41,714 nucleotides of DNA from an uncultured Candidatus Saccharibacteria bacterium (GCA_964648835.1 CAZYLR010000001.1:1-41714), one strand, 5' to 3'. Shown: positions 19,844 through 41,470, counted from the stretch's first letter. Numbers and translations: made by a program. The notes: generated by a model from the letters alone, not told the origin.

Positions 19844-19871
19844 GGATACTATCCTATCATGATACCAATAT

Positions 19872-22317: not shown

Positions 22318-22321
22318 AAGA

Positions 22322-25287: not shown

Positions 25288-25330
25288 ATTAACCTATTTT
25301 CCAGGTAATAAAAGAGTATAATGGCAGATC

Positions 25331-26446: not shown

Positions 26447-26470
26447 AAAACTATATCTTTGATTGTATTT

Positions 26471-27238: not shown

Positions 27239-27278
27239 AATTGGTGATTATAATCATTTTCTCTTATACTATCAAGTA

Positions 27279-29043: not shown

Positions 29044-30895
29044 TTTTATTCAAAAATTTATCTGCCCATAGTTGAAAAGTAAGGAGCGTCCAAAGTTTTT
29101 TGTGATTATTTCTCTTCCCGGAAAGATGCTCTACAATAATCTTTTGGACACGGTCCGGGTTAAATATTTTTTGTCTCGTAATCCTCTCTCGTGAAAGCAT
29201 GTCCAGAAGCAGAGGTTTCAAATCTTTTTTAAGCCATTCGGAAACCGGCACGCCGAAACCTTTCTTTTTTCGATAAACAATATTTTGTGGTAACTTATCT
29301 TTCATTAATTCTTTCAAAATATATTTAGTGATAAATCCATGGAGTTTATATTCATAAGGAAGAGTGATTAGAAACTCCACAATCTCTGTGCCCAAAAATG
29401 GTGCACGCACTTCAAGCGCATAACACATGCTTGCACTATCTGTCTTAGCCAACAAACAGTCCATCAGATAAGAATGCAGATAACTATTTAAGATATCCTG
29501 GGGGAGATGGGCATCACCACTTGGATAAGGATAAACTTTGACCATCTCTTGGTAGGTGTCTGGTATCAGGAGATCTGGGAGTTCCTCTTTACTAAAGGCC
29601 TGGAGCCACCGGCCATGTCTTTCTAAAGGCGCGAAATTAGCGCCTTCGATAAATTTTTGCAATTTGAAGGAAAGACTGAAATGTTTATCAGACGCCGGCA
29701 GAGAGTTAATAAGCGGTTCAATTAAACGATCCCTGATACCGGAAGGAATACTTTGGTATAAGGAAACTAACTTATCTGCTTGAAAAGTGTTATACCCAGC
29801 CAAAAGCTCGTCTCCCCCATCACCCCCCAGAGCCACTGTTACTCTTTGTCGAGTGAATTTTGAGAGAAGAAGTGTAGGAATAATGGTAGGGTCAGCCAGA
29901 GGTTCTCCCAAAACTGAGACCGATTCGAGGAGGACATTAAGAGAGTCTTGAGCAGTTACTCTTTGGTGATAATGAGCTGTTCCCAAAAAAGTTGCCACCT
30001 GCTCGGCATAAGCAGATTCGTCAAAAGACTCTTCCTCAAACCCGATAGAAAATGTCTTAATCTTCTGACTAGATGCCTTTTGAGCATAATAAGCGATTGT
30101 GGAACTGTCTATCCCCCCGCTTAGGAAAATTCCCACCGGCACATCGGCGGCTAACCTGTCACCAATGCCTTTTTCCAGCAGTTTATCAAAGCCGCTTAAT
30201 GCTTCTTCGAAAGAGATGCTAGCGGCTCCAGCAGGAATATTCCAGAAAAACTTTTTCCCGACTCTCCCTTCTCGATACAAGAGATAATGTGCCGGTTCCA
30301 GTTTATATATTCCCTTAAAAATGGAGCGCGGCGTCGGCACATATTCTCGAGTCAAATATTGCGCCAAAGATTCCAAATCAAGCTCGTGTTTAACTAAAGG
30401 ATGCGCCAACAGAGTGCCGGGTTCAGAGCCAAAGACGAAAGTATCATCGAATATACCCCAGTACAACGGCTTCTCCCCTATCCTATCCCGGGCCAAAAGT
30501 AATGTTCTCTTTTTAAAGTCATAGATGGCAATAGCAAACATGCCATCCAATTTTTCAAAACAGTCCTCACCAAATTCTTCATATAAGTGCAGTACCACCT
30601 CAGTATCTGATTTGGATTGGAAGTGATATTTCTGCTCTAAATTAAAATTTTTCTTAAGCTCTTTGAAATTATAAATCTCTCCATTGAAGATGATGGCCAC
30701 ATCTTTCCTATCATTCCACATTGGCTGGTGCCCTGCCGGACTTAAATCAAAAATACTTAAACGCGTATGCCCGAAACCCACCCCGTCTTTCAAAAAATGA
30801 CCGCGATCATCTGGCCCGCGATGCCGGATGACATCCGTCATGGTTAATAAGTCCTTTTGACTGCCCTTACCGACAAATCCACTAATTCCACACAT
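29033..30895 (-). CDS. asnB: Asparagine synthase (glutamine-hydrolysing) family amidotransferase
   Basis: MCGISGF (N-terminal Cys nucleophile), RGPDD and the PP-loop FLSGGIDSS. Length is 620 aa. Confidence 0.85.
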   Translation of the reverse strand: MCGISGFVGKGSQKDLLTMTDVIRHRGPDDRGHFLKDGVGFGHTRLSIFDLSPAGHQPMWNDRKDVAIIFNGEIYNFKELKKNFNLEQKYHFQSKSDTEVVLHLYEEFGEDCFEKLDGMFAIAIYDFKKRTLLLARDRIGEKPLYWGIFDDTFVFGSEPGTLLAHPLVKHELDLESLAQYLTREYVPTPRSIFKGIYKLEPAHYLLYREGRVGKKFFWNIPAGAASISFEEALSGFDKLLEKGIGDRLAADVPVGIFLSGGIDSSTIAYYAQKASSQKIKTFSIGFEEESFDESAYAEQVATFLGTAHYHQRVTAQDSLNVLLESVSVLGEPLADPTIIPTLLLSKFTRQRVTVALGGDGGDELLAGYNTFQADKLVSLYQSIPSGIRDRLIEPLINSLPASDKHFSLSFKLQKFIEGANFAPLERHGRWLQAFSKEELPDLLIPDTYQEMVKVYPYPSGDAHLPQDILNSYLHSYLMDCLLAKTDSASMCYALEVRAPFLGTEIVEFLITLPYEYKLHGFITKYILKELMKDKLPQNIVYRKKKGFGVPVSEWLKKDLKPLLLDMLSRERITRQKIFNPDRVQKIIVEHLSGKRNNHKKLWTLLTFQLWADKFLNKTSV

Positions 30896-30958
30896 ATTAT
30901 TTATTTATATTAGAAATATTATTACTCCCGTCAATTGAGCTATCGATTAGAACTTTCA

Positions 30959-32089
30959 TTATTGCTTTATTATGTCAGAGATTAACAAATCTATCTCATT
31001 ATTTACAATCGATACAGGAGTGCACTTGGCTTGGCGCTTGACCTCTTCAGTATCGTAAACGCGGGCATTCATGACGAAAAGCTCCGGGCCCTTGCGCGAG
31101 GGCACGATCACTTTGTGGAAACGGCTAATCGGAGGTTGCTCATTTTCATCCACAGGGCCGACAATATCTATTGTTGGTACCCCAAATGCTTCCGCAATAT
31201 AGATCGGCCCCGTATCTGCTGAAATAAAAAGCTTGAGTTTAGAGATAAAAGCCTTTGTCTCTTCAATGTTAAGTCTGCCAACCAAGTTAATAACTCTGGT
31301 ATCATGGCCTAAATGATTGAACATAACATTCGCCTCTTCATTATCATTTGGACCACCGATAATAACGACCGTAGCCTTATGTTTATCGCTTAAATGATCC
31401 GCCACTGAAGAAAATTTCTCCGCGGGCCATTGCTTTATTCGGTTTCCAGCCGAAGGTGATATACCGACAGGAAAATCCACACCATCGATGAAAACAGAGA
31501 CTGACTCTGCCGCTTTCTCTGAATAATACAGGTGTTTTTTGGTGTCATCAGTGAAGACTCCTATCGGCTCCAAAAGCTTCAAGTACTCCCTGGGAGCATA
31601 GGATCTCATCCGGTGAGGCTTTGCTATGACTAATTTTCTCAATAAACGATATGATCTCGTTTCATACGGACTCCAGCCGTTTTCTATCCTGGGAGCCGAA
31701 ATCATTGGAATATTTGCGAGAAGAATAAGCGACAAGGCATCAAAACCGGGTGCAGTTACACATCCAAAATCGAATTTTCCTTTTTTTATATCATTCAAAA
31801 TGGAAAAAGGATATTTCTTATCCCACACGATATACTCGTCAACATCACGATTCCCCGCCAAAAGTTCCTTATTGACGACATTCCCCACCACAGTAATCCT
31901 GGCTTCGGGATAGGTTTTTTTGACCGCTCGGAACATTGGCGTGGTGCAAACCATGTCTCCCAATTTTGCCAACTGGATAATAAGAACTTTGGGAGAATTT
32001 ACCCGAGGCTGATTCTTTGGCTTCTGGCGGAAATAACTTAAGAAATAGCAGGTTGCCAAGATTAGGACTATCCTAAAAAAAATTTTCAT
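30959..32089 (-). CDS. Glycosyltransferase family 9 (heptosyltransferase-like) with N-terminal membrane anchor
   Basis: VLIIQLAKLGDMVCTTPMFRAVKKTYPEARITVVG matches the GT9 N-terminal pattern (iLii....iGD.v...p...alk..yP.a.i..l). ISADTGPIYIAEAFGVPTI matches the GT9 C-terminal pattern (i.nDsGpmHlAaAlg.P.v). Confidence 0.8.
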   Translation of the reverse strand: MKIFFRIVLILATCYFLSYFRQKPKNQPRVNSPKVLIIQLAKLGDMVCTTPMFRAVKKTYPEARITVVGNVVNKELLAGNRDVDEYIVWDKKYPFSILNDIKKGKFDFGCVTAPGFDALSLILLANIPMISAPRIENGWSPYETRSYRLLRKLVIAKPHRMRSYAPREYLKLLEPIGVFTDDTKKHLYYSEKAAESVSVFIDGVDFPVGISPSAGNRIKQWPAEKFSSVADHLSDKHKATVVIIGGPNDNEEANVMFNHLGHDTRVINLVGRLNIEETKAFISKLKLFISADTGPIYIAEAFGVPTIDIVGPVDENEQPPISRFHKVIVPSRKGPELFVMNARVYDTEEVKRQAKCTPVSIVNNEIDLLISDIIKQ

Positions 32090-33042
32090 TTGTTAAGATA
32101 CTTTTTTAACTCTTCAAGCGTCACAGCCGTAGTGCCACGCTTCGTGACAGAAAGAGTGCTGACAACATTGGCAATCTGAGCAGACCTTTCCGGAGATTGG
32201 CCCGCTGCAATTAAGATAGAGAGAGCGGCCAGAGCCGTATCACCCGCGCCAATACCGTCTCTTTTGACGACCCTCAAACCTTTTATATCCAAATAATTCT
32301 TGTCTTCCTTTTTACACAAAAGCATTCCTTTAGCCCCTCGTGTAACCAGCACATGGGCACCCAGCATAGAAGATATCTTACTGGCAGCGAGCCTTAAATT
32401 GTTTGTACCTGCCATCTCCACTGCTTCATTGTTGTTTGGCTTTACAATAGTCACCCCCTTAAACCAAAGCATATTTTGCGGCTTTACATCAGCAATGATT
32501 GGGATTTTATTTCTGACCGCAAGACGAATAATTGCATGGACCAAATGCTTAGATAATGTCCCCTTCTTATAATCGGAGAGAACAATGGCATCGTAGGATG
32601 AAATACGTTTTTGTATCAATTGAAAAAGTTTTTTGGAAAGAACCGGCGCGACCATCTTGTCAGTTTCCTTGTCGAGTCTGATGAGATATTTACTGTTTCC
32701 GAAAATTCTGGCCTTCAGTGTAGACATCCGTTTCTTATCCACCAGAATATGACTTTTTATCTTTGACTTGACTAGTAATCGATTAATCGTTTTGCCAATA
32801 TCGTCTTGGCCAACAATAGAAAAAAGTTCTGGCTTACTGCCAAGAGCTTTGATATTGACAGCTACATTTGCTGCTCCACCCAAGATATCGTTCTCTTTAT
32901 GCCAAAGCACAATTGATGCGTCAGCTTCGGGAGATTTCCGGGTAACTGTGCCTTCAAGGAAACGGTCCAACATTATATCTCCTACAACTGCAATCCTTTT
33001 ATTGTGAAATGAACCAAGCCCCCTCTGATCACTAGTGTCCAT
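32086..33042 (-). CDS. hldA: D-glycero-beta-D-manno-heptose-7-phosphate kinase (RfaE/HldE domain I, PfkB family)
   Basis: RIAVVGDIMLDRFLEGTVTRKSPEADASIVLWHKENDILGGAANVAVNIKALG parallels HldE-I (vlVvGDvMLDrYw.G.v.RiSPEAPvPVv......e.pGGAANVa.Ni..LG). The C-terminal motif is GAGDTA. Confidence 0.8.
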   Translation of the reverse strand: MDTSDQRGLGSFHNKRIAVVGDIMLDRFLEGTVTRKSPEADASIVLWHKENDILGGAANVAVNIKALGSKPELFSIVGQDDIGKTINRLLVKSKIKSHILVDKKRMSTLKARIFGNSKYLIRLDKETDKMVAPVLSKKLFQLIQKRISSYDAIVLSDYKKGTLSKHLVHAIIRLAVRNKIPIIADVKPQNMLWFKGVTIVKPNNNEAVEMAGTNNLRLAASKISSMLGAHVLVTRGAKGMLLCKKEDKNYLDIKGLRVVKRDGIGAGDTALAALSILIAAGQSPERSAQIANVVSTLSVTKRGTTAVTLEELKKYLNK

Positions 33043-33093
33043 AAGAGGCTATGATAGTATAAATGCTGCAATGATAAAAGCCTATTTAGAAAA

Positions 33094-33588
33094 CTAGTCA
33101 GATCCCCCGCCGTAAGCTTTAGCGATGCGATCAATGATATTAGTTGTCGACTGGATCCGGCCAGGAACAATTACCACTCTACCACCATTCTTGCGAACAG
33201 TCGCTGTTTCAATAAGAGTCTCTGAATCATAGTCTCCACCTTTGGTATGAATCGCTGGTTTTATTGACGCTAATAAATTTACCGGATCTGGTTCGTTAAA
33301 AATAGTTACATAATCAACACAAGCCAGCGCTGCAATGATTTCTGCACGCTGAGCTTCAGGTATGATAGGGCGAAGGTCGGATTTGTACTCTTTAACTGAA
33401 GAATCGGAGTTTACCCCGACAATAAGCACGTCTCCGAGAAACTTGCTCTGTTCGAGCATTCTTTTCTGACCAATGTGCAGAATATCAAAAGCACCGTTGG
33501 TTGTAACGATTTTTTTTCCTTGTCCTTTAAACACTTCAATAATAACAAGAAGTTCCTCCAGAGACACCACTTTTTTTGAAGTATCCAT
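33094..33588 (-). CDS. hldC: D-glycero-beta-D-manno-heptose-1-phosphate adenylyltransferase (RfaE/HldE domain II, cytidylyltransferase fold)
   Basis: KIVTTNGAFDILHIGQKRMLEQSKFLGDVLIVGVNSDSSV...KGGDY...STTNIIDRI parallels HldE-II (kvV.TNG.FDiLH.GHv.yL..Ar.lGD.LiVavNsD.S...KGGDY...STt.ii.ki). Confidence 0.85.
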   Translation of the reverse strand: MDTSKKVVSLEELLVIIEVFKGQGKKIVTTNGAFDILHIGQKRMLEQSKFLGDVLIVGVNSDSSVKEYKSDLRPIIPEAQRAEIIAALACVDYVTIFNEPDPVNLLASIKPAIHTKGGDYDSETLIETATVRKNGGRVVIVPGRIQSTTNIIDRIAKAYGGGSD

Positions 33589-33590
33589 GT

Positions 33591-34727
33591 TTAAGTGATA
33601 AATTCAATAATTTTTTGAGCCCTCTTTTCCCAAGTGTAATCATTTACTTTCGACAACGCTCTTGAGGCTTTTTCATCAGATTCTCCTTTGTGTGCTAATA
33701 CGTATTCCATGATCCGAGCTAGGTTTTCTGGGTCATCCAGTTTAAAAAAGTTGGCCATCGAATCATCCAGCACCTCCCGTATTGATGGCAAATCGGAAGC
33801 GATAATCGGAGTGCCGCTGGCCATGTATTCAAACATTTTTAACGGAGACATGTAAAGCGAGAAGTGTTTGGTGGAGGGATAATTCATAACCAGGATGTCA
33901 GACAACTTTAAATACATTGGAATATCTTTGTGAGGAACGAACATCACCAAAGAATAGTTCTCTTTGCCAATATCCCCTTTTCCCATCAGTTTCTCGAGCC
34001 CGGAGACTTCTGATTTGTTTACACCAACAATGAGTAGAAACAGGTTTGGATATTTCCCCAGCAAGCAAGAAAAGGTGGAAATCAGTTCATCTACCCCCTT
34101 CTTGCCTCCCATCGTTGTGTATTTGCCTATATACGAGACAATGAAAGCCTCTCGGGGCAAGCTGAGTTTCTCTCTAAGTTCAGTTTTAGGTGTCGAAATC
34201 TCAAAATCTTTTAAGCTAACCCCGTCGTGGGCGACTAGAATTCTTTCTTCTTTCACTCCGCGAGACATCAAAAATTTCTTTAATCCAGAGGAAATGGTTA
34301 TTAATCGAACATGGCTATTCATGACTACATTAACGAGAGGGTTCAAAGCATTGGTGTGTATTTCCAAATAAATATTACTCTTAAACAAGCTCGCGATAAA
34401 CACGAACAACTCATCTCGAGAGTAGTAAATATCGGCTCTATAAAAGAGGATCATGATTATAGAAATGAAGGTGAATGTGATTTTTTGTACCCAGAATCCT
34501 AGCCAACCAAAACGAACTAGATCAAGGGAAGGAATTTTGACGATTTTAAAATTTCTCTTGGTATGGAAATGATCAAATGGATCAGCTTTTATGATGTTAT
34601 ACCTGGTGGGTACCCATAACTCAACCTCAGTTCCAGAATCAGCGAAAGCTTCACACATTTTCATTATCTGGACCCCGTGAGCTTTACCTGTTGGAATACG
34701 GACATTCGCCACATAGACAAGTTTCAT
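33591..34727 (-). CDS. Glycosyltransferase family 4
   Basis: MKLVYVANVRIPTGKAHGVQIMKMCEAFA. The C-terminal region is SPLKMFEYMASGTPIIASDLPSIREVL. Confidence 0.8.
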   Translation of the reverse strand: MKLVYVANVRIPTGKAHGVQIMKMCEAFADSGTEVELWVPTRYNIIKADPFDHFHTKRNFKIVKIPSLDLVRFGWLGFWVQKITFTFISIIMILFYRADIYYSRDELFVFIASLFKSNIYLEIHTNALNPLVNVVMNSHVRLITISSGLKKFLMSRGVKEERILVAHDGVSLKDFEISTPKTELREKLSLPREAFIVSYIGKYTTMGGKKGVDELISTFSCLLGKYPNLFLLIVGVNKSEVSGLEKLMGKGDIGKENYSLVMFVPHKDIPMYLKLSDILVMNYPSTKHFSLYMSPLKMFEYMASGTPIIASDLPSIREVLDDSMANFFKLDDPENLARIMEYVLAHKGESDEKASRALSKVNDYTWEKRAQKIIEFIT

Positions 34728-34776
34728 AAATATTTGACTTTATTATACATCAGTTTTATAATCATCGCAATAAAGT

Positions 34777-35730
34777 ATGAGAGAGGGAAAAATGCTCGCT
34801 ATTTTTGAAGAAATTCAAAATCAATTTAATCATGCCAACGGTGGTGTATATATTCATATTGATGATTTTAAAAACTTTTATATGCCACTAATAAATTACT
34901 ATATAAATGATAGAGAGAGAAGAAGCATAGATTCATATATTATCGGCATTCAGGGACCACAAGGTGTTGGTAAAACTGTTTTTGCAACGCTGGCAAAAAC
35001 TTTTCTAAAAGCCGCTGGTTATAGAGTAGAAACTATTTCTATCGATGATTTTTATAAGTCGAATGACGAACGTCTTAAAATCTCAAAAAAATATATTGGG
35101 AACCCTTTTTATCAAATTTCAAGAGGAATGCCAGGTACTCACAACCACGAATTATTATTTGAAACGCTTAAAAAAGCTAAGGCCGCTGAAAATTTTTTTA
35201 TCCCCAGGTTTGATAAGTCGCTTATATCAGGCAGGGGGGATATAGCTAAAGATAGTACAACAATAAACAAACAACTACACTTTTTGATACTTGAAGGTTG
35301 GTGTATAAATATGCCCTCAAGAGAGGATAAATTTTTATCTTCAGTAAAAAAGAATGGGTACGTAAAAAGCATATTTAACAATATAGATCCTGGGCGCGAA
35401 CACTTTAAATTAGTCCTAAAATATCTTAAAAAATACCAAAAAATATGGCATATTTTAGACAGTAAGACTTTTATATTTGCAAAGAATATCTCGTGGACAA
35501 CAGATTGGCGCAAAGAACAGGAAAAAAAACTAGTAATGTCAAAGGGTCAAGGTATGAGTGACAAAGAAGTAAACCGATTTGTGAAACCTTTTATTCCTTT
35601 TAGTTATTTTATCTACAAGGAACTAGTTCGAAACAATAACGAAAATCATTGTTTAATAGAAGTTGGGCGTGATCATACCCCTAAGAGAATGTATATGCCA
35701 TCCAAAAAACAAAATCTAAAATTTATATGA
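34777..35730 (+). CDS. P-loop kinase of the D-glycerate 3-kinase (GLYK) / yeast TDA10 family (PRK/uridine-kinase superfamily)
   Basis: IIGIQGPQGVGKTV...ISIDDFYKSNDER...SRGMPGTHNHELL...IPRFDKSLISGRGDIA...FLILEGWCIN parallels plant, cyanobacterial and yeast GLYK/TDA10 (G.sgPQGsGKs...SiDDFYLt...l..RG.pGTHD..L...lP.yDKS...G.GDR....vilfEGW.lGF). That comparison is recalled from memory. Confidence 0.7.
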   Translation: MREGKMLAIFEEIQNQFNHANGGVYIHIDDFKNFYMPLINYYINDRERRSIDSYIIGIQGPQGVGKTVFATLAKTFLKAAGYRVETISIDDFYKSNDERLKISKKYIGNPFYQISRGMPGTHNHELLFETLKKAKAAENFFIPRFDKSLISGRGDIAKDSTTINKQLHFLILEGWCINMPSREDKFLSSVKKNGYVKSIFNNIDPGREHFKLVLKYLKKYQKIWHILDSKTFIFAKNISWTTDWRKEQEKKLVMSKGQGMSDKEVNRFVKPFIPFSYFIYKELVRNNNENHCLIEVGRDHTPKRMYMPSKKQNLKFI

Positions 35731-36437
35731 AGGCACTAATCACATCAGCAGGGCTTGGGTCTAGAATTCCTGAGCTTAAAAATACAAACAAGTCCTTGAT
35801 AAAGATTGGTAATAAAACTTTAATTTCTCGCGCTATAGATTCGTTAAACAGCCGTGGCATAAATGACATATATGTGATTACCGGCCACAATGCAAAAAAA
35901 GTGGAAAAAGAGATTACCGATAGAGCAACTCCCATTTTCAACCCTTTTTACAAAACATCAGGCATAATCGTTTCTATGTGGCTTGCAAAACAATTTCTTG
36001 AAAAAGAAGACTTCATCTTCATGACCAACGACGTACTATTCGACCCAAGACTTATCGATAGGTGTCTTATGAGCAAAAAAGATATAGTCATACCCATAGA
36101 GAGAAAGGAGGGCTACACTAAGGAAGATTCTAAAGTTATAGTACGAAAAGGTATGATAATAAAAACGGGTAAGAATCTGCCACTATCAAAAACGAGTGGA
36201 GAATTTGGACATATGGCGGTGTTTAGTAAAAAAGGAGGCCAGCAGCTATTTAACAAGATAGAGTCATTTATTCTGGAGGAAAAAATAAATTCTTACTTAA
36301 TGGATGTTTTCAACGCTTTAATCGAAGATGGGGTACACTTGTACCCCGTTGATATCACCGGCATCCCAAGAATAGAAATAGATTATATGATGGATTTAAT
36401 AAGTGCACGAAAAAAAATATTTCCGCTAATAAAATGA
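35727..36437 (+). CDS. Sugar/alcohol-phosphate nucleotidyltransferase (LicC / IPCT-like NTP_transferase)
   Basis: MKALITSAGLGSRIPELKNTNKSLIKIGNKTLISRAIDSLNSRGINDIYVITGH parallels LicC-type cytidylyltransferases (MKAiILAAGlGtRl.plT...PK.Lv.v..k.li...i..L...gi.di.iv.Gy). The start overlaps the upstream stop (ATGA). Confidence 0.75.
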   Translation: MKALITSAGLGSRIPELKNTNKSLIKIGNKTLISRAIDSLNSRGINDIYVITGHNAKKVEKEITDRATPIFNPFYKTSGIIVSMWLAKQFLEKEDFIFMTNDVLFDPRLIDRCLMSKKDIVIPIERKEGYTKEDSKVIVRKGMIIKTGKNLPLSKTSGEFGHMAVFSKKGGQQLFNKIESFILEEKINSYLMDVFNALIEDGVHLYPVDITGIPRIEIDYMMDLISARKKIFPLIK

Positions 36438-37732
36438 CATCCGAAAAAGATTTCATAATAGGAAGAAAAGACGCAAGGCCGGAAAAATACGTGGTGGTTA
36501 AATATAGATTTCAAACTCCTGGCAATTTTATAAATGCAGCGGTAGATTTATCAAAAGAACAAAGTTTCTCCTCTATCGAAGACCCTATAAAAGAAAAGGA
36601 GCTTATCAAAAGATTTGCAGCAAAAGTGATTTCAGACTCCGTAGTGGAAACAAATATCAAAAGAATTCCTGACATGCCCTCTTATATATATTCCCAAAAG
36701 GACGGACCATTTATAACGCGCGAAGTAGAACTTGCCTTTCCTATAGAGCTTTTTGGAGACAGTTTGGTGCTTCTTTTAGATACAGTAATAGGTGAAGTGC
36801 ATAATATAGCTAAATTCACCGGTCTTAAGGTGTTAGATATAGAATTTCCTAGAAGCTGGAATAAAAAGTATGGCGGACCTGTATTCGGGATAGAAGGCAT
36901 TAGAAAAATAGTTGGTAAAAAAAATGGCCCCCTGCTTATCAGCCCGGTTAAACCCTGTGTTGGCTTATCTCCCGATGAATTTGCTGGGCGTGTTAAACGA
37001 TGTTTGATGGGGGGATTTGATGGCGTAAAAGACGATGAGCTGCTTCTTGACCCCCCTTATTGCCCATTCAAAGAGCGCGTAACCAAGACAATGAGAACGG
37101 TAAAAGAGGTTGAGAAAAAAACGGGGAGGAAAAAAATCTATTTCGCGCATGTGGGAGGAGATATTGATAAAATAGATGGTCTTGTTAAATTTGCGCTAAG
37201 CAAAGGTGTTGGGGGAATTATGTTCTCTCCTCTTGTCAATGGTATCGATATAATAAGAAAATACAAAGGTAAAGTTCCAATTATTGCTCACAATAATCTT
37301 ACATATGGTATGTCTAGGCATCCATTAAATGGCGTATCTTTTCATTTGCTTATGAAAATTCAACGCCTTTGCGGAGCAGATATGGTAATTTGTCCCGCGC
37401 CTGATAGAAGTTTTTATGTCATGGATATAGAAACCCATAAGAAGAATGTACAGGCATGCACTATGGACAATGGGATGCGGAAAACTTTAGCCGGTCTTTC
37501 TGGATCACAAACCCCAGAAACATTATATAATCACTATAAAATTTTAGGACATGATGATTATGCCATATGTCCAGGAGCTGCGGTGTACGAACATCCCATG
37601 GGAATAGAGGCGGGTGCTACAAGTTTCGTTGAGGCAGTTGATGCGCTCAATAATGGTATCCTGCTTAAAAAATATGCAAAAAACCATGAGGCCTTACGAG
37701 TATCGATGAGTCACTTTGTAAAGAAAGGATGA
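36434..37732 (+). CDS. RuBisCO large-subunit-like protein (form IV-type RLP derived from form III; not a carboxylase by residue pattern)
   Basis: GPVFGIEGIRKIVGKKNGPLLISPVKPCVGLSPDEF..GGFDGVKDDELLLDPPYCPFKERV..TGRKKIYFAHV..IIAHNNLTYGMSRHPLNGVSFHLLMKIQRLCGADMVICP..HPMGIEAGATSFVEAVDA..L.KYAKNHEAL aligns by eye along its length with archaeal form III RbcL (GPAFGIEGVRK..RPIYGVVPKPKVGYSPEEF..YMKDDENL..TGEKKTWFANI..IHGHRAMHA..GISMFVLAKLYRLIGIDQLHVG..HPDGPAAGARAVRQAIDA..L.EYAKTHKEL). Confidence 0.85.
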   Translation: MTSEKDFIIGRKDARPEKYVVVKYRFQTPGNFINAAVDLSKEQSFSSIEDPIKEKELIKRFAAKVISDSVVETNIKRIPDMPSYIYSQKDGPFITREVELAFPIELFGDSLVLLLDTVIGEVHNIAKFTGLKVLDIEFPRSWNKKYGGPVFGIEGIRKIVGKKNGPLLISPVKPCVGLSPDEFAGRVKRCLMGGFDGVKDDELLLDPPYCPFKERVTKTMRTVKEVEKKTGRKKIYFAHVGGDIDKIDGLVKFALSKGVGGIMFSPLVNGIDIIRKYKGKVPIIAHNNLTYGMSRHPLNGVSFHLLMKIQRLCGADMVICPAPDRSFYVMDIETHKKNVQACTMDNGMRKTLAGLSGSQTPETLYNHYKILGHDDYAICPGAAVYEHPMGIEAGATSFVEAVDALNNGILLKKYAKNHEALRVSMSHFVKKG

Positions 37733-38232
37733 TTATGAAGCCAGAATTATTCTTAAGCTTAAGACAAAAAATCATTCTTGTCGGTGGGGATCATCATGCA
37801 CGCGACCTTTCAGAAGTTGCTTATAAATATCTTAAGAAACAAGGTTTAAATGTAAAAATGGTAACCTATAATGAAAAACTCTATGATTACATACATCAGG
37901 CAAATCTAGTAGCAAAAAAGGTTAGCGCCAACCCCGGTAAATACTGTGGCATAGTGGGCTGCAACAATGGCTTCGGAGTGACGACTGTGTGTAATAAGTA
38001 CCCGTCAGTATATGCCGTTAGATGCGACAACCAGCAACAGGCTAGAAAAGCTAGAATTATAAATTATAGCAATGTACTCACCTTTGGTGCCTCTTTTCAA
38101 AACGAACAAAAAATTAAAAAGATCATCGACCTCTGGCTTTGCACAGACTTTGAATTAAGCAAAAAAAACACAAGCAGATTGAAACGTTTATTCAAAATAG
38201 AACAGAAACTCAACAAAAGTTTCAGACATTAA
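37729..38232 (+). CDS. RpiB/LacA/LacB-family sugar-phosphate isomerase-like protein
   Basis: GIVGCNNGFGVTTVCNKYPSVYAVRCDNQQQARKARIINYSNVLTFGASF...IIDLWLCTDFE parallels RpiB (GIliCGTGiGmsIaANK..GiRAA.c.d...A...R.HNdaNvL.lG.r.....a..Iv..fL.T.Fe). The usual CGTG is replaced by CNNG. ATGA overlap with the RLP gene. Confidence 0.65.
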   Translation: MIMKPELFLSLRQKIILVGGDHHARDLSEVAYKYLKKQGLNVKMVTYNEKLYDYIHQANLVAKKVSANPGKYCGIVGCNNGFGVTTVCNKYPSVYAVRCDNQQQARKARIINYSNVLTFGASFQNEQKIKKIIDLWLCTDFELSKKNTSRLKRLFKIEQKLNKSFRH

Positions 38233-38236
38233 ATTA

Positions 38237-39475
38237 ATGATTTCAATAATTTTTAGCAAGATAACAACTTTCTCAGAGATTCTTCTAGGTTGGATTATTT
38301 ACCCACTCTCTTTCTTAACCCCACGCTCTGACAAAATATGGGTTTTCATAGGATGCCGACAAAGTAAAGAGCGAGAGCTCTTTGCTGACAATTCGAAATA
38401 TATGTTTCTTTATGTAGCACAAAATATTCCAGATATTAGGACTATTTGGATAAGTGGCGACAACCAACTGCCAAAAGTTATTAGAGGATTGGGTTATAAA
38501 GCGTATTACATATACAGCCTCCAGGGTGTCTTTTACTCTCTGCGTGCTGGCTACACTTTCGTTGACGCGTTTGTGCAGTTTAGCAACTGGAAATTCTGTG
38601 GCAGTACGAAGGTTATCCAACTTTGGCACGGAAAAAGTATGAAGAAAACCGCTTATGCAAGTCCTTACAGTTTACCTGCCGCCAGCAGACTTATTTCACC
38701 CAACCTTTTTAAAAATTATGAGTATGTTATCGCTGCATCTGAATATGCGGGCAAAATGATATCCACTGTCTTTAGAATCCCCATGGAAAAAGTCTTAATT
38801 ACCGGCTTGCCCAGACACGATGTGATGTTTAAAAAAATAAAAGGATCAGAAATCGACAGTGTTCCTGTCTTAGAGGATAAGGTCAAATCTCTTAAAAAAG
38901 CTGGGATAAATAAAATAGTTTCCTACGCACCAACATTCCGTCCTAATGCGACCAACCCATTATTTGAGAATCTTAAAAAAGGCATAGATACGTTCCAATT
39001 GGATTTAAAGATGTTGGATAGACTTTTCAGAAAGCAAAATTCTCATCTCTTCATCACACTTCATCCTAAATTTTCTTTGGATAATTACGGCACCGATGAA
39101 TTCAGGAACATAACCTTTCTGCCATCTGGTTTCGATGTTTATCTTACTCTCCCACTTTTTGACGCGCTTATCACGGATTACTCAAGCTTATTCTCGGATT
39201 TCCTTCTGTTAGACAGACCAATGGTATTTTTAGTCTATGATTTGGAGAAATATAAGGTCGAAATGGGACTCTTTGACGACTTCGATGAAATGACGCCGGG
39301 TCCAAAAGTTTTCACCAACCAGGAACTCGTAGTCGAAGTGGAGAAAGTACTTGATGGTGTAGACGAATACAAAGAGAAACGTGGCAAAATACGCCAGATT
39401 TTCTATAAAAACCCTGATGGCCATTCGGCCCAAAGATTATCAAAAATTCTTGAAGATAAACTAGACACTAAATAG
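38237..39475 (+). CDS. CDP-alcohol (glycerol/ribitol)-phosphotransferase family protein, TagF/TagB-like (Glyphos_transf)
   Basis: VIQLWHGKSMKK, VSYAPTFRPN and LITDYSSLFSDFLLLDRPMVFLVYDLEKY match TagF-family motifs (QlWHG.plK, YAPTfR, liTDYSSv.fDy..l.rPiifF.yD...Y). Confidence 0.8.
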   Translation: MISIIFSKITTFSEILLGWIIYPLSFLTPRSDKIWVFIGCRQSKERELFADNSKYMFLYVAQNIPDIRTIWISGDNQLPKVIRGLGYKAYYIYSLQGVFYSLRAGYTFVDAFVQFSNWKFCGSTKVIQLWHGKSMKKTAYASPYSLPAASRLISPNLFKNYEYVIAASEYAGKMISTVFRIPMEKVLITGLPRHDVMFKKIKGSEIDSVPVLEDKVKSLKKAGINKIVSYAPTFRPNATNPLFENLKKGIDTFQLDLKMLDRLFRKQNSHLFITLHPKFSLDNYGTDEFRNITFLPSGFDVYLTLPLFDALITDYSSLFSDFLLLDRPMVFLVYDLEKYKVEMGLFDDFDEMTPGPKVFTNQELVVEVEKVLDGVDEYKEKRGKIRQIFYKNPDGHSAQRLSKILEDKLDTK

Positions 39476-39476
39476 A

Positions 39477-40556
39477 CTAGTATTTCTCATAATATTCCAG
39501 ATACTCTTTTGCGGTTTTTTCCCAAGTCATTAAGGCGGCGAATTTTCTAGATTCCTCGCTCAATCCTTGCGCTAACTTTTCATCACTTATAATTTTGACG
39601 ATAACATCACCAGTTGCGTCCACATCTTTAGCCAGTACAAGAAAGCCATTATTACCATTTAAAACAGCATCTTCAGCTGAACTATCTTTACTTCCTATCA
39701 CTGGTAGTCCATGTGAAGCAGCTTCAAGATAAACCATGCCGAAACCTTCTACATCATTCGGCGTCTCTTGTGGCATCAGGAGAAAAAGCTTGGCTCTGGA
39801 ATAGACAAAGTCCAACTCGTCAGGTTTAAGGTCAGAATAGAAAAAGACTTTGTCTTTTACATCCAACTTCACAATAAGATCCAGAAGTTCTTTTTTATAG
39901 TCATTGTCACTAGGAATGCCCACGATCACGTAACTTAATCCCGGGATTTTTTCCAGAGACCTGGCGAAGGCACTAATCGAGTATTCGTACCCCTTTCTCC
40001 TTTTTATATAACCGACTGTAAGAATATAGGGCTCGGGTATATCCGGGATTTCTGAATGTTTGCCCGTAAATTCCTGCCCCAGACCGAGATTAATTGTGTG
40101 AATATTCAAATTCGGCATTTTCTCTTTAATTCTCTTAGAAATGTAAGAACTTATGGCAAAAACTTGCCTGGCTTTTCTATAGCCGAACTTTAAAAGAAAG
40201 TTCCTTAGAAAACTGTTCGGCGTAAATATGGCTCCGCTTCCCACGCCCGTCACAAAGACGGGCCGGCCCGTACCGATAGTGGCTAAGACCGCCAGGAATC
40301 CGTATGGGAAACCATCGAGAGCATGGACTAGGTCATACTTCTTCAGTACGCGCCTGATCTTGAAAAAGTTTTTCAAGATATCTCTTCTGTTTACCGAAAG
40401 GACATGACTTTCCCCTTTATCCGCGCCACTATCAGAAACGAGAAAATCAATCTGCCAATCTAGCCTTAGTTTGAGCACGGCATCAGCCAGATTCCGAGAA
40501 AAAATTCCTGACCCGGTATTTTTTTTGATGTCATGAGTAAAGTAACAAATTTTCAT
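39477..40556 (-). CDS. Glycosyltransferase family 4
   Basis: MKICYFTHDIKKNTGSGIFSRNLA and EGFGMVYLEAASHGLPVIGSKDSSAEDAV (the E(x7)E region). Its stop codon is 1 nt from the convergent TagF-like stop. Confidence 0.8.
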   Translation of the reverse strand: MKICYFTHDIKKNTGSGIFSRNLADAVLKLRLDWQIDFLVSDSGADKGESHVLSVNRRDILKNFFKIRRVLKKYDLVHALDGFPYGFLAVLATIGTGRPVFVTGVGSGAIFTPNSFLRNFLLKFGYRKARQVFAISSYISKRIKEKMPNLNIHTINLGLGQEFTGKHSEIPDIPEPYILTVGYIKRRKGYEYSISAFARSLEKIPGLSYVIVGIPSDNDYKKELLDLIVKLDVKDKVFFYSDLKPDELDFVYSRAKLFLLMPQETPNDVEGFGMVYLEAASHGLPVIGSKDSSAEDAVLNGNNGFLVLAKDVDATGDVIVKIISDEKLAQGLSEESRKFAALMTWEKTAKEYLEYYEKY

Positions 40557-41470
40557 TTCATTTCCTCGAATAACTTTTCCATCAATAACTTCAAACTATG
40601 GTCTTCCGCCCTAAAACTCTTAAGATCAGAATTTCTTACTTCCAGTTTGGCACCACAAGCAGCTGCTTCGATTATCGTCTTATCCATACTGCCAGCAGGT
40701 GTGAAGTTGGCGTAAATTTCGTACGTTTGATAAAGCTTGAGAGCCTCTTCTTGATTCACGGGCCCGATGAATTTGATCCTATCTGAAGCTGTTCTCCTCA
40801 CGAGCTCTTCATACTTTTTATCTTTCGCCAGAGCCACGCCGGCGATAGTCGCTCTAAACTTGATATCAAGAGTATTGAACCACTCAACGAATTCAAGAAC
40901 CTTCTTGACCGGAGCGATGCGGCCAAGAAACAGTACGGAGTTAGGAACTCTAGACACAGATGCATCCGGCTTGAAAAAATCCGTATCTATACCGACAGGC
41001 ATAAGTGTTGTTTTTTTAAAGCGAGCGGTAAAGGAATGCGGGGAGGTACAAAAGACTTTGCCTGAAAGCAATACGGCTAGACAAGTCCATAGACCACCCT
41101 TAGCATGATTTCTCCACATTGATACCTTCTTGTGCAAAAGCTTCCAAAGTAATCCACCCAAAAGCACATACTCCTGATTCATGTGAACAAACACAACATC
41201 GTAGTTATTTCTCTCTTGCCAAATATATCTATAGAACCTGAAAATATATTTAAGTTTGGACTTATTTTGTTCCTTACCTAGAGACAATACTCTAACATTT
41301 ATCGGTAAACGATGTTCTCTCATTTCAAGACAAATGACTGTTACCTTTTCGCAATGCTTAGCAAACTCCTCTATCCAGCGGTGAAAGAAACCCAAAACAG
41401 GGTCATTTCTATCAACTTTTTGGGTGATGACAAGGAGTCTCATTTTATGTTGGTGGCTATACTTGCCCAA
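40553..41470 (-). CDS. Glycosyltransferase (GT-B, GT4-like)
   Basis: MRLLVITQKVDRNDPVLGFFHRWIEEFAK... and the C-terminal MDKTIIEAAACGAKL. The likely true start is ATG 41443-41441 (MRLLVI), which forms an ATGA overlap with the stop of the upstream partial gene. Confidence 0.7.
   Translation of the reverse strand: MGKYSHQHKMRLLVITQKVDRNDPVLGFFHRWIEEFAKHCEKVTVICLEMREHRLPINVRVLSLGKEQNKSKLKYIFRFYRYIWQERNNYDVVFVHMNQEYVLLGGLLWKLLHKKVSMWRNHAKGGLWTCLAVLLSGKVFCTSPHSFTARFKKTTLMPVGIDTDFFKPDASVSRVPNSVLFLGRIAPVKKVLEFVEWFNTLDIKFRATIAGVALAKDKKYEELVRRTASDRIKFIGPVNQEEALKLYQTYEIYANFTPAGSMDKTIIEAAACGAKLEVRNSDLKSFRAEDHSLKLLMEKLFEEMK

What the first reader, a model, noticed from the sequence alone, without database searches (positions are those of the whole stretch)
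34777..39475. Five-gene operon (first four genes ATGA-coupled): GLYK-type kinase, LicC-like nucleotidyltransferase, RuBisCO-like protein, RpiB-like isomerase, TagF-like phosphotransferase
Seen directly: the first four genes are chained by 4-nt ATGA stop/start overlaps (35727-35730, 36434-37, 37729-32). The TagF-like gene starts 4 nt after the fourth stop. The cassette is the only long + strand run in a locus otherwise made of minus-strand glycosyltransferase genes. Established knowledge: TagF-family enzymes transfer alditol-phosphates from CDP-activated donors onto wall polymers. LicC/IPCT-type enzymes make such CDP/NDP donors from phosphorylated alcohols or sugars. RLPs catalyse enolisation-type chemistry on phosphorylated keto-sugars or acids (methionine salvage, apiose and tetronate catabolism). 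RpiB-type enzymes interconvert aldose and ketose phosphates. GLYK/TDA10 kinases phosphorylate small hydroxy-acids. Inference: together these look like a self-contained route that builds an unusual phosphorylated C3-C5 polyol or acid-sugar, nucleotide-activates it and installs it as a phosphodiester unit in a teichoic-acid-like glycopolymer. As far as I know no RLP has been assigned a biosynthetic role in cell-envelope polymer synthesis, so this is the best candidate for an undescribed system in the window.
Basis: partly seen in the sequence, partly recalled or inferred. Interest (0 to 1): 0.88.

Follow-up and report, generated by a model that had tools for sequence, protein, structure and literature searches.

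The report
RuBisCO-like protein in CDP-donor cassette
A Parcubacteria genome carries a tightly coupled operon in which a non-carboxylating RuBisCO-like protein, a sugar-phosphate isomerase, a glycerate-kinase-type kinase and a CTP-type nucleotidyltransferase travel together as a rare cassette beside teichoic-acid-type phosphotransferases, which suggests a first biosynthetic (cell-envelope) role for a RuBisCO-like protein, although the molecule it makes is still unknown.

Summary
Five + strand genes (34777-39475) are chained by three ATGA overlaps and one 4-nt gap, behind a near-consensus promoter. Family calls hold: GLYK/Tda10-type kinase (K), LicC/PntC/IPCT-type cytidylyltransferase (N), RuBisCO-like protein (R), RpiB-like isomerase (I) and TagF-like phosphotransferase (T).

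New evidence: R belongs to a rare, sharply separated clade of about 15 protein clusters in CPR bacteria and DPANN-labelled MAGs. Every intact locus recovered also has N, I and a kinase. The order is K-N-R-I in eight lineages. One lineage has R-K'-I-N, with an unrelated MtnK-like kinase in place of K. Flanking genes differ between loci. The phosphotransferase varies: TagF-like in three lineages, LicD in one, none seen in the others.

R keeps the Mg/carbamate enolisation core but lacks K177, R295, H327 and K334, so it is not a carboxylase. The window has no CDP-glycerol or CDP-ribitol source.

Best reading: a self-contained pathway makes an unusual CDP-activated phospho-compound for a phosphodiester-linked envelope glycan. 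Its identity is unresolved; candidates are a phosphoglycerate-like acid (CpgD/CDP-glycerate precedent) or a tetrulose/pentulose phosphate. I found no prior description of this context. Verdict: a new variant of a known kind, of high interest.

The parts
34734..34762 (+). sigma-70-type promoter-like site, TTGACT-17 nt-TATAAT
   Evidence: Best match in the scanned region, 11 of 12. It lies in the 49-nt divergent intergenic region upstream of K. This is a consensus match only and has not been shown to function.
34777..35730 (+). K: GLYK/Tda10-family P-loop kinase, 317 aa (the true start may be the ATG at 34792)
   Evidence: The profile of cassette orthologs matches D-glycerate 3-kinase 6CKG at 8e-35, Tda10 1ODF at 2.5e-29 and GLYK 7XPC at 2.5e-29. 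The motifs GxxGxGK(T/S), SIDDFY, RGxPGTH, P(R/K)(F/Y)DKSxxxGxGD, EGW and WRxxQE are shared. Orthologs sit in the same position in L003, L004, L011, L019 and L022.
35727..36437 (+). N: COG1213-type (LicC/PntC/IPCT-like) nucleotidyltransferase, probably CTP-dependent, 236 aa
   Evidence: Pfam NTP_transf_3 at 6.3e-11. The profile matches PntC 6PD1 at 4e-16 over its full length, LicC 1JYK at 3e-13 and IPCT 2XME at 8e-12, all ahead of sugar-1-phosphate transferases. Orthologs (42-81% identity) are found in every intact RLP locus, including L021.
36434..37732 (+). R: RuBisCO-like protein (form IV), a distinct clade nearest IV-Photo, 432 aa
   Evidence: RuBisCO_large at 1.2e-34. Best PDB hits are the C. 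tepidum RLP 1TEL/1YKW at 2e-53 and RLP2 2QYG at 2e-50. The clade is separated by an identity gap (>=52% inside, <=34% outside).
37729..38232 (+). I: divergent RpiB/LacAB-family sugar-phosphate isomerase, 167 aa
   Evidence: LacAB_rpiB at 1.2e-28. The profile matches E. coli RpiB 1NN4 at 1e-31. The catalytic Cys is kept. The His99 position is Ile/Val/Thr, and T68 is Asn.
38237..39475 (+). T: TagF-like CDP-alditol-type phosphotransferase, 412 aa
   Evidence: Glyphos_transf at 3.1e-55. Matches TagF 3L7I at 1.8e-20 and TarL 8VA1 at 6e-19. WHG (TagF H444), LH (H584) and TDYSS are conserved. Orthologs (38-40% identity) follow the cassette in L006 and L011.
17984..41470 (.). Surrounding Wzx/Wzy-type envelope glycan locus (context; presumed acceptor pathway)
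   Evidence: Contains Wzy_C, a Polysacc_synt flippase, GT4/GT2/GT1/GT9 glycosyltransferases, methyltransferases, YfhO, GtrA, YdjC, AsnB-like and RfaE I/II genes.

Best explanation
The operon encodes a self-contained precursor pathway plus its transferase. It has three parts.
1. A conserved four-enzyme cassette (kinase, RpiB-like isomerase, non-carboxylating RuBisCO-like enolising enzyme, CTP-type nucleotidyltransferase) converts a pentose-phosphate-pathway sugar phosphate into an unusual phosphorylated small carbohydrate or hydroxy-acid.
2. The nucleotidyltransferase activates that compound as CDP-X.
3. The TagF-like enzyme (LicD in other lineages) transfers X-phosphate onto the envelope glycan built by the surrounding Wzx/Wzy locus, giving a teichoic-acid-like phosphodiester unit.

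Most likely step order (inferred):
- I isomerises an acyclic aldose phosphate to the ketose phosphate. Erythrose-4-P or ribose-5-P are candidates; some loci add an FSA/transaldolase.
- The kinase adds or supplies a phosphate.
- R uses its Mg2+/carbamylated-Lys site to enolise and rearrange or cleave a 1-phospho-2-keto-type intermediate.
- N makes CDP-X.
- T or LicD installs it.

My leading guess for X is a phosphoglycerate-like hydroxy-acid, because K is a glycerate-kinase homolog and a COG1213 enzyme that makes CDP-glycerate (CpgD) is now known. A tetrulose or pentulose phosphate is the main alternative.

Shown: gene anatomy, family membership, active-site signatures, co-conservation. Inferred: step order, CTP use, identity of X, and that T uses the cassette's product.
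For: Co-conservation of the cassette:
- The order K-N-R-I is seen in the window, L015 (98% RLP identity), L003 (85%), L022 (76%), L004/L005/L001 (74%), L019/L020 (73%), L006 (69%), L011/L012 (69%) and L007 (61%).
- L021 (64%) has R-K'-I-N.
- Flanking genes are unrelated between loci.

The kinase step survives a change of fold, from GLYK-like to MtnK/APH-like. That is expected if a kinase is an obligatory pathway step. It also mirrors known kinase + COG1213 pairs, LicA-LicC and AmgK-MurU (my own knowledge).

The only loci without N (L008-10) carry a frameshifted RLP.

N groups with CTP:phospho-alcohol/phosphonate cytidylyltransferases.

Phosphotransferases that use CDP-X donors sit next to the cassette in four lineages and belong to two unrelated families, TagF-like and LicD. 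T keeps both TagF catalytic histidines.

R keeps E60, K175, K201, D203, E204, H294, S379 and G403. It lacks K177, R295, H298, H327 and K334. So the enolisation/metal site and the proximal phosphate site are intact, while the carboxylase residues and distal phosphate residues are gone.

The window has no TagD or TarIJ.

CDP-glycerate made by the COG1213 enzyme CpgD is documented (PMC12275187, PMC13228409).

Three ATGA overlaps and a strong promoter-like site fit a single transcription/translation unit.
Against: - No biochemical data exist for any member.
- T or LicD was not seen in L019 or L007, where the flanks are short or different. Linkage of the cassette to a phosphotransferase is therefore frequent but not universal.
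- L004 also encodes a fused cytidylyltransferase/glycerol-1-P-dehydrogenase-like protein 5 kb away. It could supply CDP-glycerol to LicD there.
- K belongs to a large family (495 hits). A 52%-identical member stands alone among housekeeping genes in a Woesearchaeota genome, and the cassette kinases are polyphyletic within the family. K may therefore have a generic activity such as glycerate kinase, which is hard to connect chemically to RpiB and an RLP, since both normally need an already phosphorylated substrate.
- Every concrete scheme I could write conflicts with at least one enzyme's expected specificity.
- No reductase is conserved, so a classical alditol phosphate is unlikely.
Confidence: 0.6

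Rival explanations
1. The cassette makes an NDP-sugar (a glycosyl donor) and not a CDP-alcohol-type donor. In this reading the kinase makes a sugar-1-phosphate or bisphosphate, as in HldE/GmhB or AmgK/MurU. N makes the NDP-sugar. One of the many neighbouring glycosyltransferases uses it. T and LicD are unrelated neighbours that use CDP-glycerol, CDP-ribitol or CDP-choline made elsewhere.
For: - N also gives weaker hits to MurU, RmlA, GlmU and HddC-type sugar-1-P transferases.
- K' is related to an anomeric kinase, MtnK.
- HAD or His_Phos_1 phosphatases sit next to the cassette in L011 and L019, as GmhB does in heptose pathways.
- GT genes flank the cassette in the window.
- L019 and L007 have no TagF or LicD in view.
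Against: - N's best full-length matches are the phospho-alcohol/phosphonate cytidylyltransferases PntC, LicC and IPCT.
- Two unrelated CDP-X phosphotransferase families recur right beside the cassette in four lineages.
- T follows I after only 4 nt in the window.
- The window has no alternative CDP donor pathway.
Confidence: 0.15
2. The kinase-RLP-RpiB triad is a salvage or catabolic module. Analogues would be OiaK-OiaX-DerI in D-apiose catabolism, or an MTA/5-deoxyribose-type route. It would feed carbon into the pentose-phosphate pathway (hence the FSA/transaldolase), and its adjacency to N and T would have no pathway meaning.
For: - All characterised RLPs are salvage or catabolic enzymes (PMC10176493).
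- R scores equally against the OiaX and MtnW models, and I hits the DerI model.
- More distant RLPs sit in acid-sugar catabolic clusters with a DUF1537 kinase, class II aldolases and RpiB.
- K' is MtnK-like.
- L008-10 lie outside any glycan locus.
- FSA/Tal follows I in L006 and L011.
Against: - N is present in every intact locus. It is translationally coupled between K and R in the window and stays linked even when the gene order is rearranged, as in L021.
- No transporter, dehydrogenase or aldolase typical of catabolic sugar clusters is conserved with the cassette.
- The loci lacking N have a broken RLP.
- Most loci are embedded in glycan-synthesis genes.
Confidence: 0.15
3. A CBB-like carboxylating route: I makes ribulose-5-P, K acts as a phosphoribulokinase analogue, and R is a true if unusual carboxylase giving 3-phosphoglycerate. 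That product is then simply central metabolism, or is converted to CDP-glycerate.
For: - The triad mirrors Rpi-PRK-RuBisCO.
- K is in the PRK/uridine-kinase superfamily.
- 3-PGA is the canonical product of the superfamily, and phosphoglycerate is a substrate of a COG1213 enzyme.
- A phosphoglycolate-phosphatase-like HAD follows T in L011.
Against: - K177, R295, H327 and K334 are replaced by residues that are invariant across the clade. By established RuBisCO enzymology these residues are needed for carboxylation and RuBP binding.
- K matches GLYK at 1e-35, but no PRK structure appears even at E<=1.
- I lacks the ring-opening His99 used for ribose-5-P.
- The HAD match is generic.
Confidence: 0.05

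Closest known systems
Wall-teichoic-acid precursor/transfer modules (TagD or TarI/TarJ plus TagF/TarL; TagF-like capsule polymerases)
   Same: A dedicated nucleotidyltransferase makes a CDP-activated phospho-compound. A Glyphos_transf enzyme with the two catalytic histidines and the CDP-binding motif transfers it as a phosphodiester unit.
   Different: There is no TagD (a different fold) and no TarJ-type reductase. The precursor is built by a GLYK-like kinase, a divergent RpiB and an RLP, none of which occurs in known teichoic-acid pathways. The host is a CPR bacterium whose glycan locus is of Wzx/Wzy type.
Caulobacter CpgD / CDP-glycerate (ceramide diphosphoglycerate pathway; PMC12275187, PMC13228409)
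   Same: A COG1213-type Mg-dependent cytidylyltransferase activates a phospho-hydroxy-acid. The authors postulate a dedicated enzyme that supplies phosphoglycerate. Here a glycerate-kinase homolog overlaps the cytidylyltransferase gene.
   Different: The Caulobacter acceptor is a sphingolipid. No RLP or RpiB is reported in that pathway.
LicA-LicC-LicD phosphocholine pathway and AmgK-MurU (recalled from my own knowledge)
   Same: A kinase followed by a COG1213 nucleotidyltransferase, followed by a LicD-type phosphotransferase. L021 has an APH-fold kinase and L004 has LicD next to the cassette.
   Different: The substrate is not choline: two sugar-phosphate-type enzymes (RLP, RpiB) are obligatory partners. 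In most loci the kinase is a P-loop GLYK type.
IV-Photo RuBisCO-like proteins (C. tepidum CT1772, R. palustris RLP2)
   Same: They are the best-scoring relatives. They share the substitutions N123->E, H327->I and G381->S and keep the K175/K201/D203/E204/H294 core. A true IV-Photo homolog (P0017) also has an RpiB and a putative kinase nearby.
   Different: Identity is only 29-31% and the clade forms a separate deep branch. Other positions differ: K177 is C where IV-Photo has N, R295 is N where it has F, K334 is S where it has R, and S379 is kept where it has G. The IV-Photo function is itself unknown.
D-apiose catabolism: OiaK-OiaX(RLP)-LerI-DerI(RpiB family) (Carter et al. 2018, recalled from my own knowledge; model names appear)
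   Same: It is the only characterised pathway that combines a kinase, an RLP and an RpiB-family isomerase, and it links to erythrose-4-P and hence transaldolase.
   Different: That pathway is catabolic, uses a DUF1537 kinase and has no nucleotidyltransferase or phosphotransferase. R scores 183 bits against an OiaX cutoff of 700.
Calvin-cycle module Rpi-PRK-RuBisCO
   Same: The same three superfamilies appear in one operon: a pentose-phosphate isomerase, a PRK-superfamily P-loop kinase and a RuBisCO-fold enzyme.
   Different: R lacks the carboxylase residues. K is GLYK-like and not PRK-like. I lacks the ring-opening His. N and T have no counterpart in the Calvin cycle.

Membership tests
Bona fide RuBisCO (forms I-III) | Carbamylated Lys and metal ligands (K201, D203, E204), plus K175 and H294 | tested here: met
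   K199, D201, E202, K173 and H286 are invariant in the clade.
Bona fide RuBisCO (forms I-III) | Carboxylation and RuBP-binding residues K177, R295, H298, H327 and K334 | tested here: not met
   These positions are C, N, T/S, I and S respectively, invariant across the clade. R is therefore not filed as a carboxylase.
RuBisCO-like proteins (form IV), RuBisCO_large fold | Significant full-length match to the RuBisCO large-subunit catalytic and N-terminal domains, with non-canonical active-site residues | tested here: met
   PF00016 at 1.2e-34 and PF02788 at 1.3e-4. Matches 1TEL at 2e-53 over residues 5-426.
IV-Photo RLP subgroup | Clade membership and the full IV-Photo residue pattern (E123, N177, F295, I327, R334, G379, S381, R404) | tested here: inconclusive
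   The clade shares E123, I327 and S381 but differs at positions 177, 295, 334, 379 and 404. Identity is 29-31%. The NJ tree places it as a neighbouring but separate branch. Jaffe 2018 placed Parcubacteria RLPs inside IV-Photo.
MtnW/YkrW DK-MTP-1-P enolase | A Lys at the N123 position as general base, with methionine-salvage neighbours (MtnA/B/X/D) | tested here: not met
   The position is an invariant Glu. R scores 183 bits against a cutoff of 409. No salvage genes are in any locus apart from an MtnK-like kinase in L008/L021.
GLYK/Tda10 D-glycerate 3-kinase family | Sequence and motif membership: P-loop, SIDDFY, RGxPGTH, PxYDKSxxxGxGDR, EGW, WRxQQE | tested here: met
   The profile matches 6CKG at 8e-35, 1ODF at 2.5e-29 and 7XPC at 2.5e-29, with all motifs aligned.
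GLYK/Tda10 D-glycerate 3-kinase family | D-glycerate 3-kinase activity | not testable with these tools
   Requires an enzyme assay. Indirect evidence only: 52%-identical stand-alone homologs occur in DPANN genomes, some labelled D-glycerate 3-kinase by JGI.
COG1213 cytidylyltransferases (LicC, IPCT, PntC, CpgD) | N-terminal GxG(T/S)R loop, catalytic Lys and the (N/G)D metal-binding motif, with best matches to this group | tested here: met
   AGLGSR (R13), invariant K22 and invariant D102. Matches PntC at 4e-16, LicC at 3e-13 and IPCT at 8e-12.
COG1213 cytidylyltransferases (LicC, IPCT, PntC, CpgD) | CTP specificity and identity of the phospho-substrate; CpgD residues Asn90, Asn110, Met147, Lys161 and Ser170 | not tested
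   The CpgD sequence and structures (10WG-10WK) are not in the PDB copy that was searched.
RpiB (ribose-5-phosphate isomerase B) | Catalytic Cys66 and the Asp9/His10 motif | tested here: met
   C78 is invariant and GGDHH is conserved.
RpiB (ribose-5-phosphate isomerase B) | His99 (furanose ring opening) and Thr68 | tested here: not met
   His99 is I/V/T and Thr68 is Asn in all cassette copies. The position is fixed by comparing 1NN4 with the 2VVR entry, which differs exactly there. Scores fall below the rpiB equivalog cutoffs. I is therefore filed as an RpiB/LacAB-family isomerase of unknown substrate.
TagF-like glycerophosphotransferases (PF04464) | Pfam match above threshold, the catalytic histidines (TagF H444 and H584) and the CDP-binding TDYSS region | tested here: met
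   188 bits against a cutoff of 22.1. WHG, LH and TDYSS align to TagF 3L7I; the H584A mutant entry 3L7M marks that position.
TagF-like glycerophosphotransferases (PF04464) | Use of CDP-glycerol or CDP-ribitol as donor | not testable with these tools
   No TagD or TarIJ is in the window. Scores lie far below the TarF/TarL/TarB equivalog cutoffs.

The most novel reading that the evidence does not exclude
This is the first anabolic RuBisCO-like protein. In CPR bacteria and DPANN archaea, an RLP (with a divergent RpiB and a kinase) builds a previously undescribed CDP-activated building block. Candidates are a phosphoglycerate-like acid or a keto-tetrose/pentose phosphate. TagF-like or LicD-like enzymes then install it as a phosphodiester unit in the cell envelope. 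Because the clade is the nearest relative of the IV-Photo RLPs, solving it could also reveal the chemistry of that long-unassigned group.
Probability: 0.5. Interest if true: 0.85.

Novelty: new variant of a known kind. Interest (0 to 1): 0.72.

Why it matters
RuBisCO-like proteins have only ever been assigned to salvage or catabolic reactions: enolase, isomerase, decarboxylase and oxygenase. The IV-Photo group has had no assigned reaction since it was first described in 2001.

A conserved, portable cassette that places an RLP between a kinase and a cytidylyltransferase, next to CDP-dependent phosphotransferases, gives a concrete and testable biochemical context. There are five small soluble enzymes, a defined set of candidate substrates and a CDP-linked product detectable by LC-MS.

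It would also be the first insight into anionic, teichoic-acid-like envelope polymers of CPR/DPANN organisms, whose surfaces mediate their episymbiotic lifestyle. And it would extend the newly discovered CDP-glycerate type of donor chemistry beyond Caulobacter sphingolipids.

Tried and rejected
- True carboxylase: rejected on the invariant loss of K177, R295, H327 and K334.
- MtnW enolase or a methionine-salvage operon: rejected. Position 123 is Glu, scores are sub-threshold and no partner genes are present.
- A CDP-glycerol source next door: rejected. The PfkB + CTP_transf_like pair is RfaE domains I/II, scoring 166 bits against 28 bits for TagD.
- 'Type B loci lack the nucleotidyltransferase': initially thought true, then rejected for L021, where the cut ORF after RpiB is an N ortholog. 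It remains true only for L008-10, where the RLP is frameshifted.
- The 279-aa ORF after RpiB in L007 as a divergent FSA: no similarity found.
- HAD-kinase fusions as a clue to the kinase substrate: the HAD domain is generic.
- The His_Phos_1 neighbour in L019 as a phosphoglycerate mutase: ambiguous; the best hit is a CobC-type phosphatase.
- Phage carriage of the clade: none found on IMG/VR contigs.
- Literature searches combining RuBisCO-like protein with teichoic, cytidylyltransferase, nucleotidyltransferase/glycosyltransferase or RpiB: no prior description of this context.
- Carter 2018 could not be read because it is not held in the library.
- A metagenome scan added only one new locus.
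- CpgD could not be compared directly, because neither its sequence nor its structure is in the accessible PDB copy.
- Rfam found no RNA elements in the window.

Full report
OBSERVATION. ATGA stop/start overlaps occur at 35727-30, 36434-37 and 37729-32, and T starts after a 4-nt spacer. Overlaps of this kind are common in the window: 8 of 22 same-strand junctions are -4. They therefore indicate an ordinary, tightly coupled operon in a compact genome and nothing unusual. The best sigma-70-like site in the region (TTGACT-17-TATAAT, 11 of 12 matches, 34734-34762) lies in the 49-nt divergent intergenic region just upstream of K. A second ATG at 34792, preceded by GAGGG, may be the true start. The cassette is the longest + strand block in the locus but not the only one. 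Its G+C content (0.35-0.38) is slightly below that of the flanks (0.39-0.43).

ORGANISM AND CONTEXT. The window is bacterial, since it carries SecA, GatB and Obg. It comes from a Parcubacteria (CPR) genome. Its SecA is 100% identical over 79% of its length to 'Parcubacteria group bacterium GW2011_GWC1_43_30', and 80-83% identical to Zambryskibacteria proteins. From about 17.9 kb to the end of the window runs a Wzx/Wzy-type envelope glycan locus. It contains a Wzy_C protein, a flippase, GT1/GT2/GT4/GT9 glycosyltransferases, methyltransferases, YfhO, GtrA, YdjC, an AsnB-like amidotransferase and a split RfaE. The PfkB kinase and the cytidylyltransferase-like protein beside the operon are RfaE domains I and II for ADP-heptose (269 and 166 bits). 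They are not TagD, which scores 28 bits. The window therefore holds no standard CDP-glycerol or CDP-ribitol pathway.

THE FIVE PROTEINS.
- K has no Pfam family above cutoff. A profile of its orthologs matches the D-glycerate 3-kinases 6CKG (8e-35) and 7XPC and yeast Tda10 1ODF (2.5e-29), with all family motifs aligned. No phosphoribulokinase structure appears even at E<=1.
- N is an NTP_transf_3 protein. Its profile best matches the CTP-dependent phospho-alcohol/phosphonate cytidylyltransferases PntC (4e-16, full length), LicC (3e-13) and IPCT (8e-12). Sugar-1-phosphate transferases score lower.
- R is a RuBisCO large-subunit homolog. Its best solved relatives are the IV-Photo RLPs of C. tepidum and R. 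palustris (2e-53 and 2e-50).
- I is an RpiB/LacAB-family isomerase (1e-31 to E. coli RpiB). It keeps the catalytic Cys, but the His99 position (the ring-opening residue, as I recall it) is Ile/Val/Thr and Thr68 is Asn in every cassette copy. This points to a substrate other than furanose ribose-5-P, perhaps an acyclic one.
- T is a Glyphos_transf protein (3.1e-55). It aligns to TagF and TarL with both catalytic histidines and the TDYSS CDP-binding region conserved.

All NCBIfam scores lie far below the equivalog cutoffs, so none of the five is an ortholog of a named enzyme.

THE RLP. In a 5.8-billion-protein search, R has about 15 relatives at 52% identity or higher, and then a gap to 34% or lower. 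The genome-contig and metagenome-contig scans added only a handful of loci, and the viral scan found none. This is a rare and sharply delimited clade. A neighbour-joining tree places it beside, but outside, true IV-Photo RLPs at 29-31% identity. The active-site signature is invariant across the clade:
- Kept: E60, K175, K201, D203, E204, H294, S379 and G403.
- Changed: N123->E, K177->C, R295->N, H298->T/S, H327->I, K334->S (with R/K at position 333) and G381->S.

The metal/carbamate enolisation machinery and the proximal phosphate site are therefore intact. The residues needed for CO2 addition and for binding the distal phosphate of RuBP are absent. This is an enolising RLP that probably acts on a 1-phospho-2-keto-type substrate, and it is not a carboxylase. 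E123, I327 and S381 are shared with IV-Photo. Jaffe et al. 2018 had already noted eight Parcubacteria RLPs near IV-Photo with partly conserved residues. They did no context analysis and suggested an oxidative-stress role.

CO-CONSERVATION (the key test). The order K-N-R-I recurs, with different genes on either side, in:
- the window, and L015 (98% RLP identity, from an independent metagenome);
- L003 (85%);
- L022 (76%);
- L004/L005/L001 (74%, labelled Nanoarchaeota MAG);
- L019/L020 (73%);
- L006 (69%);
- L011/L012 (69%);
- L007 (61%)
.

In L021 (64%) the order is R-K'-I-N. K' is an unrelated APH-fold kinase most similar to methylthioribose kinase, and the truncated ORF after I is a clear N ortholog at 43-49% identity. 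The kinase role therefore survives a change of protein fold, and N is present in every intact locus. The only loci without N (L008-10) carry an RLP split by a frameshift, and they lie outside glycan genes.

Phosphotransferases that use CDP-activated donors sit beside the cassette in four lineages and belong to two unrelated families. TagF-like proteins are found in the window/L015, L006 and L011, and these orthologs share 38-40% identity. LicD is found in L004. Recurrent accessory genes are:
- an FSA/TalC-type aldolase between I and T in L006 and L011;
- orthologous NUDIX hydrolases in L004, L019 and L006;
- a HAD phosphatase in L011 and a His_Phos_1 protein in L019.

HOW IT MOST LIKELY WORKS. 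The anatomy fits a precursor cassette plus transferase. Sugar-phosphate chemistry (I, the kinase and R) produces an unusual phosphomonoester. N converts it to CDP-X. T or LicD transfers X-phosphate onto the glycan assembled by the neighbouring genes. Family membership, active-site signatures and co-conservation are shown. The step order, the use of CTP, the identity of X, and the claim that T uses the cassette's product are all inferred.

Three clues bear on X.
1. K is a glycerate-kinase homolog. The K family is large (495 hits), includes a 52%-identical stand-alone enzyme in a housekeeping context in Woesearchaeota, and the cassette kinases are polyphyletic within it. This suggests that K keeps the family's general activity.
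2. CDP-glycerate is now a documented metabolite. It is made by the COG1213 enzyme CpgD for Caulobacter ceramide diphosphoglycerate, and the authors postulate a dedicated phosphoglycerate supplier (PMC12275187, PMC13228409).
3. No reductase is conserved with the cassette, which argues against a classical alditol phosphate.

My leading guess is therefore a phosphoglycerate-like hydroxy-acid donor. The main alternative is a keto-tetrose or keto-pentose phosphate. That alternative fits the acyclic-substrate hint from I, the FSA/transaldolase link to erythrose-4-P, and the pneumococcal precedent for CDP-xylulose (my own knowledge). No scheme I could write satisfies the expected specificities of all five enzymes, and I say so plainly.

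RIVALS.
(a) The cassette makes an NDP-sugar for a glycosyltransferase, and T and LicD are bystanders (0.15).
(b) The kinase-RLP-RpiB triad is catabolic or salvage, by analogy with OiaK-OiaX-DerI or MTA salvage. More distant RLPs do sit in acid-sugar catabolic clusters. But the obligatory N argues against this (0.15).
(c) A Calvin-like Rpi-PRK-RuBisCO route to 3-PGA, which the missing carboxylase residues contradict (0.05).

COMPARISON AND NOVELTY. The system works like a teichoic-acid precursor/transfer module, or like the LicA-LicC-LicD pathway, but its precursor enzymes are unprecedented there. All characterised RLPs are salvage or catabolic enzymes (PMC10176493). Full-text searches found no paper linking an RLP to cytidylyltransferases, teichoic acids or glycosyltransferases. 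I classify it as a new variant of a known kind. The pathway logic (CDP-activated phosphodiester glycopolymer) is known. The new elements are the recruitment of an RLP, a divergent RpiB and a GLYK-like kinase, and probably a new donor. Interest is high (0.72) because the cassette gives a tractable route to the function of an RLP group close to the long-unassigned IV-Photo proteins, and to the envelope chemistry of CPR/DPANN organisms.

Noticed in passing
window 898-8382 (- strand): A giant 2494-aa ORF with about 52% G+C and strong GC skew, in a genome of about 40% G+C. Its only Pfam hit is a C-terminal Peptidase_S74 (endosialidase intramolecular chaperone) domain, as found in phage tail fibres and large surface fibres.
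   Followed up: partly
window 30959-33588 (- strand): A split RfaE (heptose-7-P kinase and heptose-1-P adenylyltransferase as separate genes) plus a GT9 heptosyltransferase, in a CPR bacterium. This implies ADP-heptose use in a non-LPS glycan. No GmhA or GmhB was seen in the window.
   Followed up: partly
L008 3508-4813 (also L009, L010, L017, L018): The RLP is split by a frameshift near residues 156-167, identically in three metagenome samples. These loci lack the nucleotidyltransferase and lie outside glycan genes, next to a phage-type metallopeptidase. This looks like a decaying copy of the cassette.
   Followed up: partly
L021 2158-5186: A rearranged cassette, R-K'-I-N, in which an APH-fold, MtnK-like kinase replaces the GLYK-like kinase (non-orthologous displacement). 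The N-terminal part of the RLP is interrupted by a run of Ns from an assembly gap.
   Followed up: yes
L004 14927-16495 (- strand): A 522-aa fusion of a cytidylyltransferase-like domain with an Fe-ADH (glycerol-1-phosphate-dehydrogenase-like) domain, about 5 kb from the cassette in the Nanoarchaeota-labelled contig. It may be a one-protein CDP-glycerol route and could serve LicD there.
   Followed up: no
L023 9001-9912 / L024 1346-2257: A 52%-identical homolog of the cassette kinase stands alone in a Woesearchaeota genome. It sits between a flavin reductase and the ribosomal protein S6e/eIF2-gamma genes, with TIM nearby. GLYK-like kinases are widespread in DPANN (495 hits) and have not been characterised there.
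   Followed up: partly
proteins P0081 and P0163: Natural fusions of a HAD-IA phosphatase domain with the GLYK-like kinase (540-547 aa). The HAD part is generic (CTE7/REG-2-like), with weak hits to phosphoglycolate phosphatase and RuBP 5-phosphatase models.
   Followed up: partly
L013 5751-16208: A true IV-Photo RLP (P0017, 60% identical to the C. tepidum RLP) lies in a cluster with a UPF0261 protein, two class II aldolase-like proteins, transketolase, beta-hydroxyacid dehydrogenases, an OYE and an RpiB. This is a possible clue to the unassigned IV-Photo function.
   Followed up: no
L004 5723-6106, L019 171-554, L006 4938-5390: Orthologous small NUDIX hydrolases (41-81% identity to one another) recur next to the cassette in three lineages. 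They may hydrolyse or proof-read the CDP-linked product.
   Followed up: partly
window 8928-9533 (- strand): A gene for a 23S rRNA intervening-sequence protein family member (PF05635) overlaps the start of gatB by 4 nt. No rRNA or other Rfam family was detected anywhere in the window.
   Followed up: no
window 34777-34794: The annotated start of K (34777) lies only about 15 nt after the -10 box and has no Shine-Dalgarno sequence. A second in-frame ATG at 34792 follows GAGGG, so K may be 5 residues shorter.
   Followed up: partly
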